Below are positions 23,472-60,900 of a DNA stretch of 64,000 nt, in pieces (position 1 is the first letter of the stretch; each line of letters starts with the position of its first letter). The DNA is from Pecten maximus (taxonomy: Eukaryota). The stretch covers positions 36,642,001-36,706,000 of the forward strand of contig NC_047022.1 in NCBI RefSeq assembly GCF_902652985.1. Direction: 5' to 3'. The notes beneath the pieces are model-generated. The model was not told the DNA's origin. It saw only the letters and a list, made by a program, of their open reading frames with translations, and ran no database searches. A program made the translations under genes and the position numbers.

Positions 23472-26400
23472 ATGGCGGGTTTCCAGCTGGCCAACGTCCT
23501 TCATGTCGTCCTGATACTCGCTAGCTGTTGTGATGCTGAGAAGCTGGAAAGGACCACATTCAAAGCGGCGGTGTATGAACACGCCGTTATTCTGTCCGAC
23601 GTCCGACACGAGAATGCGTCTGTCTCGAGGACGACGGCCCTCCAACACATGATGAAAAACCTGAACATATACCGGGATCAGGTGGAGACGGCAGCACAAC
23701 AGGTAATCATTAGTTAGGTAAACCTCAGGAATCCGTGTACGCCAGGTAATAATTAGGTAAACCTCAGGAATCCGTGTACGCCAGGTAATCATTAGGTAAA
23801 CCTCATGAATCCGTGTACGCCAGGTAATCATTAGTTAGGTAAACCTCAGCAATCCGTGTACGCCAGGTAATCATTAGTTAGGTAAACCTCAGGAATCCGT
23901 GTACGTCAGGTAATCATTAGGTAAACCTCAGGAATCCGTGTACGTCAGGTAATCATTAGGTAAACCTCAGGAATCCGTGTACGCCAGGTAATCATTAGTT
24001 AGGTAAACCTCAGGAATCCGTGTACGCCAGGTAATCATTAGTTAGGTAAACCTCAGCAATCCGTGTACGTCAGGTAATCATTAGGTAAACCTCAGCAATC
24101 CGTGTACGTCAGGTAATCATTAGGTAAACCTCAGGAATCCATGTACGCCAGGTAATCATTAGTTAGGTAAACCTCATGAATCCGTGTACGCCAGGTAATC
24201 ATTAGTTAGGTAAACCTCATGAATCCGTGTACGCCAGGTAATCATTAGTTAGGTAAACCTCAGCAATCCGTGTACGTCAGGTAATCATTAGGTAAACCTC
24301 ATAAATCCGTGTACGCCAGGTAATCATTAGTTAGGTAAACCTCAGCAATCCGTGTACGCCAGGTAATCATTAGTTAGGTAAACCTCAGGAATCCGTGTAC
24401 GCCAGGTAATCATTAGGTAAACCTCAGCAATCCGTGTACGTCAGGTAATCATTAAGTAAACCTCATGAATCCGTGTACGCCAGGTAATCATTAGTTAGGT
24501 AAACCTCAGCAATCCGTGTACGCCAGGTAATCATTAGGTAAACCTCAGCAATCCGTGTACGCCAGGTAATCATTAGTTAGGTAAACCTCAGCAATCCGTG
24601 TACGTCAGGTAATCATTAGTTAGGTAAACCTCAGGAAACCGTGTACGTCAGGTAATCATTAGGTAAACCTCAGGAATCCGTGTACGCCAGGTAATCATTA
24701 GGTAAACCTCAGGAATCCATGTACGCCAGGTAATCATTAGGTAAACCTCAGGAATCCATGTACGCCAGGTAATCATTAGGTAAACCTCAGGAATCCGTGT
24801 ACGTCAGGTAATCATTAGTTAGGTAAACCTCAGGAATCCGTGTACGCCAGGTAATCATTAGTTAGGTAAACCTCAGGAATCCATGTACGCCAGGTAATCA
24901 TTAGGTAAAGCTCAGGAATCCGTGTACGCCAGGTAATCATTAGTTAGGTAAACCTCAGGAATCCGTGTACGTCAGGTAATCATTAGGTAAACCTAAGGAA
25001 TCCATGTACGCCAGGTAATCATTAGGTAAACCTCAGCAATCCGTGTACGTCAGGTAATCATTAGTTAGGTAAACCTCAGCAATCCGTGTACGTCAGGTAA
25101 TCATTAGGTAAACCTCAGCAATCCGTGTACGTCAGGTAATCATTAGTTAGGTAAACCTCAGGAATCCGTGTACGCCAGGTAATCAGGTAAACCTCAGCAA
25201 TCCGTGTACGTCAGGTAATCATTAGGTAAACCTCAGGAATCCGTGTACGCCGGGTAATCATTAGTTAGGTAAACCTCAGGAATCCATGTACGCCAGGTAA
25301 TCATTAGTTAGGTAAACCTCAGCAATCCATGTACGTCAGGTAATCATTAGGTAAACCTCAGGAATCCATGTACGCCGGGTAATCATTAGTTAGGTAAATC
25401 TCAGCAATCCGTGTACGTCAGGTAATCATTAGGTAAACCTCAGGAATCCGTGTACGCCAGGTAATCATTAGGTAAAGCTCAGGAATCCGTGTACGTCAGG
25501 TAATCATTAGTTAGGTAAACCTGAGGAATCCGTGTACGTCAGGTAATCATTAGTTAGGTAAACCTCAGGAATCCATGTACGCCAGGTAATCATTAGGTAA
25601 ACCTCAGGAATCCGTGTACGCCGGGTAATCATTAGTTAGGTAAACCTCAGGAATCCGTGTACGTCAGGTAATCATTATTAGGTAAACCTCAGGAATCCAT
25701 GTACGCCAGGTAATCATTAGGTAAACCTCAGGAATCCGTGTACGCCAGGTAATCATTAGTTAGGTAAACCTCAGCAATCCGTGTACGCCAGGTAATCATT
25801 AGTTAGGTAAACCTCAGGAATCCGTGTACGTCAGGTAATCATTAGTTAGGTAAACCTCAGGAATCCGTGTACGCCGGGTAATCATTAGGTAAACCTCAGG
25901 AATCCATGTACGCCAGGTAATCATTAGGTAAACCTCAGGAATCCGTGTACGCCAGGTAATCATTAGTTAGGTAAACCTCAGCAATCCGTGTACGCCAGGT
26001 AATCATTAGGTAAACCTCAGGAATCCGTGTACGCCAGGTAATCATTAGTTAGGTAAACCTCAGGAATCCGTGTACACCAGGTAATCATTAGTTATGTAAA
26101 CCTCAGCAATCCGTGTACGTCAGGTAATCATTAGGTAAACCTCAGGAATCCGTGTACGTCAGGTAATCATTAGTTAGGTAAACCTCAGGAATCCGTGTAC
26201 GCCGGGTAATCATTAGGTAAACCTCAGGAATCCGTGTACGCCAGGTAATCATTAGTTAGGTAAACCCCAGGAATCCGTGTATCAGTTCAATAATTTAAAT
26301 GTCGTTCGATTTTATCGCTTTGAATGTGTTCGACAGGGTACAATAAAAGCGAAAAATTTTGGAATGAAAGTTTTCAATGAATACCAAGAAAATGAGACAT

Positions 26401-57900: not shown

Positions 57901-60900
57901 TAGTATTGTATATCATATTGTAATGTGTATCATATTGTATATCATATTGTAATGTATATCATATTGTATATCATATTGTAATGTATATCATATTGCATAT
58001 CATATTGTATTGTATATCATATTGTATTGTATATCATATTGTATTGTATATCATATTGTATTGTATATCATACTGTATTGTATATCATATAGTATTGTAT
58101 ATCATATTGTATTGTATATCATATTGTAATGTATATCATATTGTATTGTATATCATATAGTATATCATATTGTATTGTATATCATATTGTATTGTATATC
58201 ATATTGTAATGTATATCATGTTGTATTGTATATCATATTGTATATCATATTGTAATGTATATCATATTGTATTGTATATCATATTGTATTGTATATCATA
58301 TTGTAATGTATATCATGTTGTATTGTATATCATATTGTATTGTATCATGTCTTATTGTATATATTGTATTTTATCATATATTGTATCATATCAAATTGTA
58401 TTGTATCATATATTGTATTGTATCACATATTGTATTGTATCATATCATACTGTATCATATTTTATTGTAACATATAATTATTGCTTTGTTATGTAGCTTA
58501 TCATATTGTATTGCTAGAGTATAAGGGTAATGAATTTAGCCATTAACATGAAATATATATTTGTCCCTCCTTTTTAATTCACATGTTATGGAATAGTATT
58601 TGGTCTATATTTATTCTCCATGAGTCTATTGATTGACAGGATCTTATTACCAGAGGTAGTCTACAATACGATTTAAGATAAACCACAACAAACAAATAAA
58701 AAAATTGTGATCAAACCTGTCTAAGGTACTTGGCTGCTTTTCTTTCTGTGAATCCACTTTCTTTACTGATTCTGTCAAAGAATTCTCCACCCTGCATATA
58801 CTCCAACACCACCAAGAGTCTAGGTCTGTGAAATAAACAATGAATGAAGTAAATACTCCAACACCACCAAGAGTCTGGGTCTAGGAAACAAAGTATATAC
58901 TCCAACACCATCAGGAGTCTGGGTCTAGGAAACAAAGTATATAATCCAACACCATCAGGAGTCTGGGTCTAGGAAACAAAGTATATACTCCAACACCACC
59001 AAGAGTCTGGGTCTAGGAAACAAAGTATATACTCCAACACCACCAAGAGTCTGGGTCAAGGAAATAAAGTATATACTCCAACACCACCAAGAGTCTGGGT
59101 CTAGGAAACAAAGTATGTACTCCAACACCACCAGGAGTCTGGGTCAAGAAAACAAAGTATATACTCCAACACCACCAAGAGTCTGGGTCAAGAAAACAAA
59201 GTATATACTCCAACACCACCAAGAGTCTGGGTCTAGGAAACAAAGTAAATACTCCAACACCACCAAGAGTCTGGGTCAAGGAAATAAAGTATATACTCCA
59301 ACACCACCAAGAGTCTGGGTCAAGAAAACAAAGTATATACTCCAACACCACCAAGAGTCTAGGTCTAGGAAATAAAGTATATACTCCAACACCACCAAGA
59401 GTCTGGGTCTAGGAAACAAAGTAAATACTCCAACACCACCAAGAGTCTGGGTCAAGGAAACAAAGTATATACTCCAACACCACAAAGATGCTAGGTCTAG
59501 GAAATAAATGATGAACAAATTATGTAATCCATCACCACTGATCGTTTGGTAAAAACAACACTCTTTACATGCATTTTTAGCATTTGGTTGTACATTGTAT
59601 TTTACAATTTTTCTGCTTTTCTGTTTGTTCTTAAAAATTTGTTGACCTTAAAATGTGATAAAATATTGCTTCATTCTCCTAAAACAAACTGATATTTAAG
59701 TTATCGTATTTTGATAAAATGCCAAATATTTTACATACCAGCACACTTTTAAAGTTGAAAATCCAATATTGTATGGGATAAATTTTCAATTAACTTCAAT
59801 TGACATTCCATTAAAACTCACTTTGCATGTGGTTCCCCTGGAAATTGTATATCATTAGCATACACATCATACACAGACACAATATTGTCATGGCCACTGC
59901 ACATCTTATGCAGATTAACCTCTGTCCTAGCTTTCGGGATGTCCAGCAGACATTTCAGGGCAAATTTCTTACAATTGTTCCTCTTTGTACATGGCCTGAA
60001 ATTAAAACAAATTATCATTCATGATGTTGTAACAGTCTAATTTTGCTTTCTAAATTAAACAAAATATGTTTTACTGGTTAATTCAAAACATGAAGTTCTG
60101 TTATAAGCATCAAAACCTATTATATGAGTACAGTACTAGTTAAACCTCACTTAATGACCACCTCAAAATGATGACCACCCCAGGTGGTCTTAATAGAGAG
60201 ATTTCAACTGTGTATGTTTTGAAACAATGCTGCCAAAAATTTAAATAGATCAGTATAAACTACTTAACTTATCAATTTATATAACCCCCAACAACTCAGA
60301 TAAGAACTATATATTGATAAATTGATCATTGCAGCATGGCTGCTGAAGAAATTCATTTTTGCTGGATTTATAACAGAATAGGAGTGATCATGATAACATA
60401 CAGCTACATCATATACAATGTATCATTTAGCATTGATTCATGGAATTTATTATTACTACGGGGTATCTTTTCACTGTTCTTTGCTAACATCTACATGTTA
60501 AACTTTTGGTGCAAGAGTTGATGTTCACTCTTAACAAATACCCATTACACATTTCCTCTATGTTATACAATTACATCCACCTGCACAGGCATTGATGTTC
60601 ACTTATGGGTTACACATGAGTGTAAAGTTCAAAATAGATAACACAATTTTATATTTTGTTATTTTTTTTGTGTGTCTTAGAATAAACTCATTCCTTTTCA
60701 AATATACTTTAAAGGGTGAACTACATGTCATTCCCGGCTCTTTTAATGACTTCAACAGAACACTGCATTACCTTACTGGTCCACTGATGCCTGTGCCAAG
60801 CTTCTGGTTCCATTGAACTATGTAGTCGTCAATAATTGAAGATGTCTGAAACATCATTATATAAAAATAATTGTATTATCAGCTATAAAATACAAAATGG

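What the first reader, a model, noticed from the sequence alone, without database searches (positions are those of the whole stretch)
23700..59505. Minisatellites repeatedly anchored on splice junctions
Seen: five arrays begin at and copy a splice site - the biotinidase exon 1 donor, the MAPKAPK5 exon 7 donor, and the MAPKAPK5 exon 4, 8 and 10 acceptors. Two more start next to stop codons (PLA2, MIF copy 1). Arrays always extend into the non-coding side and leave the CDS intact. Inference: either repeat birth is biased to exon edges, or arrays arise anywhere and only those sparing the CDS survive. Either way the spliceosome must ignore many near-identical decoy sites, and copy number could tune unproductive splicing.
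Basis: partly seen in the sequence, partly recalled or inferred. Interest (0 to 1): 0.7.

Follow-up and report, generated by a model that had tools for sequence, protein, structure and literature searches.

The report
Scallop splice-junction "mirage" minisatellites
Several scallop genes carry tandem repeats that copy an exon border up to 60 times into the intron, but a 2-million-base sample of the genome shows about as many as random placement gives, so these are likely tolerated repeats of a kind already known from lancelets and humans, not a splicing device.

Summary
The arrays are real; the window is king scallop (Pecten maximus). Three straddle a splice site (biotinidase exon 1 donor, MAPKAPK5 exon 7 donor and exon 8 acceptor). 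One copies the exon 4 acceptor in shortened form 21 nt away, and one only abuts the exon 10 acceptor. RNA contigs use the exon-proximal copy at all three junctions laid. One DNA run has a single copy where the assembly has three. 'Anchoring' did not replicate outside the window. In 2.0 Mb chosen without looking, 7 of 68 intronic arrays straddled a junction against 5.3 expected (ratio 1.33, 95% CI 0.53-2.74). In Pfam-anchored genes it was 2 of 26 against 3.0, and none of 10 checked stops had an array within 10 nt. Tandem repeats cover 22% of the sample, introns are short once arrays are collapsed, and young duplications carry microhomology (20 of 36 have 3 nt or more; null 7%). Best reading: microhomology-seeded duplications arise nearly anywhere, those inside coding sequence are purged, and those on a border survive. 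These are the 'mirages' of amphioxus and the human F7 VNTR. This scan has reported them before, in this genome and others. A twofold donor bias is not excluded.

The parts
23700..26281 (+). 43/39-bp minisatellite, ~60 units, starting on the biotinidase exon 1 donor (3 exon nt CAG, likely the microhomology arm); 56 identical decoy donors; read-through hits a stop after 4 codons
   Evidence: no match outside the array in the own-genome search
23481..23702 (+). biotinidase/vanin-type gene, exon 1
28011..29366 (+). biotinidase/vanin-type gene, exon 2 (CN_hydrolase + Vanin_C)
54907..55350 (-). 46-bp x 9.7 array = last 21 nt of MAPKAPK5 exon 7 + first 25 nt of intron 7; 8 identical decoy donors; first copy used in RNA
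52818..52985 (-). 55-bp x 3 duplication = last 22 nt of intron 7 + first 33 nt of exon 8; 2 identical decoy acceptors, both would give a premature stop; last copy used in RNA; one copy only in DNA run X18; 3-nt microhomology
58847..59508 (-). 44-bp x 15 array in intron 3: ~30 nt of exon 4 behind a shortened, weaker acceptor; ends 21 nt before the true site
51810..52299 (-). 60/61-bp x 8 array copying the 3' end of intron 9 (pyrimidine tract + weaker AG), ending 4 nt before exon 10; no exon sequence
14631..15637 (+). 43-bp x 23 array starting 1 nt after the stop codon of a group III-type phospholipase A2 gene
30741..31007 (-). 66-bp x 4 array starting 9 nt after the MIF copy 1 stop; 3-nt microhomology
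49740..49843 (-).
48984..62402 (-). MAPKAPK5 gene, 13 exons, 481 aa, GC donor at intron 1

Best explanation
These arrays are head-to-tail copies of local sequence, some spanning an exon-intron border, and they likely arise by microhomology-seeded duplication at near-random places and survive at borders because splicing still uses the copy next to the exon. Step 1, birth (shown for the sample, inferred for each array): 20-70-bp segments flanked by 2-8-nt direct repeats duplicate in place. Step 2, growth (inferred): the doublet grows by slippage or unequal exchange, as arrays do everywhere in this genome (22% tandem-repeat cover, about 208 arrays per Mb). Step 3, filter (shown as depletion; cause inferred): seeds inside coding sequence are removed. 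Seeds on a border leave the first donor or last acceptor in its old exon context, so the mRNA is unchanged (shown at three junctions). Step 4 (predicted, untested): the rare transcripts that use a decoy carry a premature stop and would be destroyed by nonsense-mediated decay. With introns a few hundred bases long once arrays are collapsed, roughly 2% of splice sites are then expected to carry such an array, and a gene-dense, array-rich window shows several.
For: Junction test in 2.0 Mb outside the window: 7 of 68 arrays in 202 introns straddle, 5.27 expected; all copy numbers 9 of 118 against 8.44. Pfam-anchored, hand-curated genes: 2 of 26 against 3.0. Repeat-finder-free test at 24-nt junction windows: curated donors 2 of 98 against 1.59, acceptors 0 of 99 against 1.30; ab initio donors 6 of 257 against 3.17 (P=0.10), acceptors 3 of 256 against 2.67. 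Seed cover deep in predicted exons is 0-0.4%. Exon overlap as a share of the unit spreads from 0.07 to 0.82 in 14 arrays, not different from uniform (KS P=0.28), so breakpoints do not sit on the junction. Microhomology of 3 nt or more in 20 of 36 young duplications against 7.2% (10 of 46 rows dropped: 6 negative, 4 over 15 nt). The three arrays searched match only their own locus (this search skips very common words). RNA contigs join 52850 to 55330 in 3 of 3 RNA-type runs and 51805 to 52395 in 2 of 3, with no decoy joint listed. DNA run X18 joins 52845 to 52956, and its depth in that bin (7.06) equals that of the single-copy contig alone (7.07). 0 of 10 checked stops and 0 of 22 predicted stops outside the window have an array within 10 nt. 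MAPKAPK5 introns collapse to 153-1801 nt.
Against: Power is low: 7 events, with a CI reaching 2.7. Most block exons are ab initio. On the window the predictor found 24-25 of 28 known exons among 32-34 calls (its splice matrices came from the window), and false exons dilute any excess. The stricter subset gave 6 against 2.6 (P=0.046). Donor straddling was 8 of 260 (3.1%) against about 1% in distal intron for single-locus arrays, although several hits of that kind look like false exons. Block C7 alone holds 4 of the 7 events, two on one exon and two on the two ends of one intron. Contigs drop rare forms, and the RNA donors may lack the extra copies, so decoy silence is shown only weakly.
Confidence: 0.75

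Rival explanations
1. A real but mild (about 1.5-2.5-fold) excess of array births or survival at exon edges, mainly donors. It would come from higher G+C, from splice-motif words acting as microhomology arms, or from transcription-linked damage near exons.
For: Donors 5, acceptors 2 of 7 events; ab initio donors 6 against 3.17; strict subset 6 against 2.6, P=0.046. Units are GC-richer than background (0.395 against 0.362), and donor-centred windows are 0.400 GC, a bin with ratio 1.31. The biotinidase arm is the donor's own CAG.
Against: Curated genes 2 against 3.0; ratio 0.70 without C7; 0 of 52 sites in the C8 flanks; P=0.046 is one of about a dozen subsets tried.
Confidence: 0.2
2. A splicing-linked mechanism (reverse splicing, cDNA repair, spliceosome-associated R-loops) seeds duplications exactly at splice junctions.
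For: Two arrays begin within 5 nt of a donor (biotinidase 3 nt; a TRAF7-like exon in block C1, name from recall, 5 nt), and two end within 4 nt of an acceptor (exon 10; PPP2R1A-type).
Against: Overlap fractions are spread like a uniform variable, arrays within 10 nt are not in excess (1 against 1.1), and most intronic arrays lie more than 150 nt from any exon (45 of 60).
Confidence: 0.03
3. The arrays are maintained regulators: copy number sets the share of unproductive, NMD-bound transcripts.
For: Read-through from both donors, both exon 8 decoys, the 6 exon 4 decoys listed and 8 of 9 exon 10 decoys give a premature stop; human ABCA7 shows one-unit retention (PMC5954066, passages).
Against: Frameshifts are what random unit lengths give; the exon 8 array is absent in one DNA run; there is no decoy-derived insert in 4 scallop orthologues or in 2 CEP41 isoform proteins; frequency is near neutral expectation.
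Confidence: 0.05
4. The arrays are assembly artefacts.
For: X18 lacks two of the three exon 8 units; no long reads were laid.
Against: Units differ from one another in patterned ways (89-97% match, mixed 39/43-bp units), and X18 covers the exon 7 and exon 10 arrays (depth 7-59 and 29-48). Only the nearly perfect 55-bp triplet could be an artefact of copy number.
Confidence: 0.03

Closest known systems
Amphioxus 'mirage' minisatellites (Adh3, globins BflGb6/BflGb9, troponin C, PGBD5); PMC3087553 and PMC3902484, passages read; the original Adh3 paper (Canestro 2002) was not held
   Same: Tandem copies of an exon-intron border, at both 5' and 3' borders; units of tens of bases; normal splicing; copy number differs between haplotypes.
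   Different: A bivalve; arrays up to 60 copies here and 191 copies (10.5 kb) elsewhere in the genome; here the frequency was tested against a null and found near chance.
Human F7 intron 7 37-bp VNTR; PMC1557585, abstract and Discussion read
   Same: The first unit spans the exon-intron junction; identical downstream donors stay silent and the most upstream is used, as at MAPKAPK5 exon 7.
   Different: Shown there by mutagenesis; here only contig joints. F7 says nothing on acceptor arrays, where the last copy is used.
Human ABCA7 intron 18 25-bp VNTR; PMC5954066, passages read
   Same: An array starting at the donor, like the biotinidase array; use of a decoy one unit down gives a frameshift and premature stop.
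   Different: There, decoy use was seen and a section reports splicing affected by VNTR length; no such data here.
Microhomology-mediated tandem duplication; PMC13167724, abstract read
   Same: Single-copy segments flanked by short direct repeats duplicate, evolve mostly neutrally and are depleted from coding sequence.
   Different: The abstract names microbes and humans; it does not address splice borders or molluscs as far as I read.
Internal tandem repeats at exon-intron boundaries in human segmental duplications; PMC2812944, passages read
   Same: Minisatellite-size repeats at exon-intron borders.
   Different: There, some create new introns or alternative forms; none seen here.

Membership tests
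Mirage minisatellites (as described in PMC3087553) | Repeat unit contains an exon-intron boundary of the host gene | tested here: met
   Met for exon 7 donor (21 exon nt), exon 8 acceptor (33), exon 4 acceptor (~30, shortened intron part); marginal for biotinidase (3 nt); not met for exon 10, PLA2 and MIF arrays
Mirage minisatellites (as described in PMC3087553) | Head-to-tail minisatellite-size units made from local sequence | tested here: met
   Periods 43-66 bp; 3 of 3 arrays searched match only their own locus
Mirage minisatellites (as described in PMC3087553) | Many units keep GT/AG signals, yet regular splicing is undisturbed | tested here: met
   56, 8 and 2 identical decoys; RNA contigs use the exon-proximal copy at the 3 junctions laid; RefSeq protein identical to that model. 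Minor forms cannot be seen in contigs.
Mirage minisatellites (as described in PMC3087553) | Length variation between haplotypes | tested here: inconclusive
   One DNA run has one unit where the assembly has three; short-read contigs only, one run
Mirage minisatellites (as described in PMC3087553) | Somatic instability (Adh3) | not testable with these tools
   needs single-molecule typing of tissues
F7-type silent pseudo-donors | Downstream identical donors are functional but outcompeted by the most upstream one | not testable with these tools
   needs minigene mutagenesis; the outcome (first donor used) is seen
Microhomology-mediated tandem duplication | Short direct repeats at the duplication ends above chance | tested here: met
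   20 of 36 young duplications with 3 nt or more against 7.2% null; in the window 3, 3, 3, 2 and 0 nt for 5 young arrays
   Ratio 1.33, CI 0.53-2.74: a large excess is not met, a twofold one is not excluded
   Overlap fractions 0.07-0.82 in 14 arrays, KS P=0.28

The most novel reading that the evidence does not exclude
Scallop genomes make minisatellites about twice as often at splice donors as elsewhere, and thousands of genes carry polymorphic rows of full-strength decoy sites (up to 190 copies) whose number sets how much transcript leaks into nonsense-mediated decay: a genome-wide, population-variable dial on expression and a natural test bed for how the last of many identical acceptors is chosen.
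Probability: 0.1. Interest if true: 0.6.

Novelty: new member of a known kind. Interest (0 to 1): 0.22.

Why it matters
The finding itself is ordinary. What it adds is a first estimate from this scan's window of how often such arrays should sit on junctions by chance: about 2% of splice sites (9 of 517 predicted sites, 64 range), which would be thousands of cases in this genome (extrapolated). That makes scallops a large natural panel for splice-site choice among identical competitors, above all at acceptors: in 4 of 7 acceptor arrays examined the upstream decoys score as well as the true site. The arrays also trap spliced aligners, since decoy units match exon ends.

Tried and rejected
(1) Self-training of the exon model drifted: recovery on the window fell from 24 to 16 of 28 at one threshold. 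It was dropped for a model trained on window and Pfam-hit exons. (2) Pfam as a blanket exon filter had low yield: 21 host-gene hits kept from the first 150 pieces and 25 from the second 150, so it served only to anchor genes; 67 further candidates were not scanned. (3) First metagene with all periods: no signal, but the background was inflated by long and multi-locus repeats and by footprints 1.45 times the period. It was redone with single-locus 10-100-bp seeds, a repeat-finder-free test and a per-intron null. (4) The idea that large acceptor arrays survive only with weakened decoys is rejected: weak in 3 of 7 acceptor arrays, full strength in 4, including 28 of 29 units at CEP41. (5) The idea that the biotinidase, exon 10 or PLA2 arrays are dispersed elements that landed there: no other locus found. 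(6) Stop-codon adjacency did not recur. (7) The X18 joint 51856-52280 (depth 7, 34 letters on the short side) may be a short allele of the 60-bp array or a path through similar units; not used. (8) The Ylistrum MAPKAPK5 11-aa insert lies at the exon 1/2 GC-donor junction, not at an array. (9) Seven paper searches listed no genome-wide test of mirage enrichment and no scallop report; the library lacks most subscription papers, and no supplements were read.
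Full report
Source and genes. The window is G000:C8:36642001-36706000 of a 918-Mb assembly. The cluster of the best MAPKAPK5 hit holds Pecten maximus XP_033748920.1 on a contig of the same length as C8, and my 13-exon model translates to that protein exactly. The other genes are a group III-type PLA2, a cytochrome-b5-domain gene (neuferricin-like, name from recall), a biotinidase/vanin-type gene and two MIF copies. Tandem repeats cover 33% of the window.

Observation. 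All seven arrays exist. Three strictly straddle a splice site: biotinidase exon 1 donor (3 exon nt), MAPKAPK5 exon 7 donor (21 nt) and exon 8 acceptor (33 nt). The exon 4 array copies about 30 exon nt but stops 21 nt short of the site and carries a shortened acceptor. The exon 10 array copies only the intron end and stops 4 nt before the exon. Decoys are identical to the true site at biotinidase (56), exon 7 (8) and exon 8 (2), and weaker at exons 4 and 10. The PLA2 and MIF arrays start 1 and 9 nt after the stop. That extra copies lie on the non-coding side is forced by geometry once the exon-proximal copy is spliced.

RNA and DNA runs. Only 51630-56090 was laid, on four runs kept as contigs. 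The three RNA-type runs (three studies; one is RNA on record, one guessed, one of unknown kind) join 52850 to 55330, that is first donor copy to last acceptor copy. Two of the three join 51805 to 52395. No decoy joint is listed. Contigs drop rare forms and the donors' genotypes are unknown, so this shows the main form only. The DNA-type run X18 has one contig running from exon 8 into unique intron with one 55-bp unit; its depth in that bin is fully explained by this contig (7.06 against 7.07). This suggests a recent, polymorphic duplication. The biotinidase and exon 4 junctions rest on frame and homology, not on RNA.

Is it more than chance? In the window, after collapsing each array to one unit, 3 of 19 arrays straddle the 44 sites against 1.43 expected (P=0.17). 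Looser, after-the-fact definitions reach P=0.005-0.017. To test outside the window I took nine 200-kb blocks at a fixed position on nine chromosomes and 100 kb on each side of the window. Repeat cover was 13-37% per block, 22% overall. Exons were predicted with a splice-matrix and codon model chained by phase. On the window, a version whose coding part was trained on other genes found 24-25 of 28 exons among 32-34 calls. Pfam scans of 300 pieces anchored about 16 genes, which I curated by eye to 98 donors and 99 acceptors; I had seen the straddling cases before curating.

Three tests followed. (a) Seed cover around predicted junctions, single-locus 10-100-bp arrays: donors 8 of 260 (3.1%), acceptors 2 of 257 (0.8%), distal intron about 1%, deep exon 0-0.2%; flanks 0 of 52. 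Several hits of this kind look like false exons. (b) Without a repeat finder, asking whether a 24-nt window on the junction recurs at least twice on the intron side: ab initio donors 6 against 3.17, acceptors 3 against 2.67; curated 2 against 1.59 and 0 against 1.30; window 1 against 0.78 and 2 against 0.48. (c) Uniform placement within each collapsed intron: 7 of 68 arrays against 5.27 (ratio 1.33, CI 0.53-2.74); stricter set 7 of 46 against 4.38; without C7, 3 against 4.31; all copy numbers, 9 of 118 against 8.44; curated only, 2 of 26 against 3.0; strict ab initio subset, 6 of 28 against 2.6, P=0.046. Introns crossed by an array running through an exon, or over 5 kb collapsed, were left out. 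Units are GC-richer than background, which alone favours donor windows by about 1.3. No array lay within 10 nt of 10 checked or 22 predicted stops. So junction arrays are common, at about the rate that the genome's repeat load and short collapsed introns predict. A twofold donor excess cannot be excluded.

Further cases found on the way. RefSeq proteins confirm a CEP41 exon with a 69-bp x 30 acceptor array on one side and a 42-bp x 99 donor array on the other, and an intron of LOC117331719 with a 55-bp x 191 donor array (10.5 kb) and a 41-bp x 7 acceptor array. These proteins follow the exon-proximal copies. PPP2R1A-type, convertase and USP30-type exons carry others.

Mechanism. Young, near-perfect duplications have microhomology of 3 nt or more in 20 of 36 cases against 7.2% at random (10 of 46 rows dropped as negative or over 15 nt). 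The biotinidase array has CAG at both ends, so its 'anchor' is probably its microhomology arm. Three arrays searched in the genome match only their own place. Exon overlap runs evenly from 7% to 82% of the unit (KS P=0.28), against a process that cuts at the junction. I infer birth by microhomology-mediated duplication (PMC13167724, abstract), growth by ordinary minisatellite turnover, loss of seeds inside coding sequence, and tolerance at borders. For donors, use of the first copy matches the human F7 result (PMC1557585, abstract and Discussion). For acceptors the last copy is used. Pairing with the downstream donor across the exon is the likely reason (recalled model, untested), since decoys are as strong as the true site in 4 of 7 arrays. 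Nearly all decoy products examined would carry a premature stop and would be hidden by NMD.

What is known. These are the 'mirages' of amphioxus (PMC3087553, PMC3902484, passages) and the F7 and ABCA7 VNTRs (PMC1557585; PMC5954066, passages). I reached that reading from the papers before consulting earlier notes. The scan has filed the same kind in abalone, cephalopod, annelid and urchin genomes and three times in this genome; those notes are unchecked and are not evidence. Seven searches listed no genome-wide enrichment test and no scallop report. PMC10078293 (passages) catalogues human repeats linked to splicing but did not bear on birth at junctions.

Verdict. Real arrays, new members of a known kind. 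The 'anchoring' is mostly what chance plus purifying selection gives in a genome about one-fifth tandem repeat. Interest 0.22.

Noticed in passing
L067-L068 (G000:C7:15065870-15072177): A 126-nt CEP41 exon sits between a 69-bp x 30 acceptor array and a 42-bp x 99 donor array, both with full-strength decoys; RefSeq isoforms use the exon-proximal sites.
   Followed up: yes
L074-L075 (G000:C7:15136118-15147192): One intron of LOC117331719 is almost wholly a 55-bp x 191 donor array (10.5 kb; 185 of 190 decoys as strong as the true donor) plus a 41-bp x 7 acceptor array at its other end.
   Followed up: yes
window 62346-62345 (minus strand): MAPKAPK5 intron 1 begins with GC; the Ylistrum orthologue model has 11 extra residues at this junction, possibly an annotation reading through the GC donor.
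   Followed up: partly
window 53224-53790 (minus strand): An endonuclease-type ORF (Pfam Exo_endo_phos_2) of a retroelement remnant lies in MAPKAPK5 intron 7; depth in the DNA run is several times the flanks.
   Followed up: no
window 54096-54482: A 166-bp x 2.3 repeat with depth 7,000-17,000 in the DNA run, so a very high-copy dispersed family, unlike the local arrays.
   Followed up: no
window 45860-48100 and 63460-63620: Several copies of a dispersed element with a 55-bp internal tandem unit (23-24 other hits in the sample).
   Followed up: no
window 37805-43671: The largest array (64 bp, ~90 units, 5.9 kb) is intergenic, more than 1 kb from any coding exon found.
   Followed up: no
window 54840-54910 (minus strand): Degenerate older units continue beyond the exon 7 array's called edge, and the far edge unit of the exon 4 array resembles the true intron end: edge units escape homogenisation.
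   Followed up: partly
window 1-8900 (minus strand): A multi-exon gene with no Pfam hit on the 9 pieces tried from this region; it has no large tandem array and was not annotated.
   Followed up: no
L161-L168, L170, L175, L128: Clusters of long ORFs with DNA polymerase B, ATPase, PC4 and endonuclease VII hits, probably Polinton-type elements (label from recall); excluded from the tests.
   Followed up: no
L186-L188: At least two neighbouring serum amyloid A-type genes left of the window.
   Followed up: no
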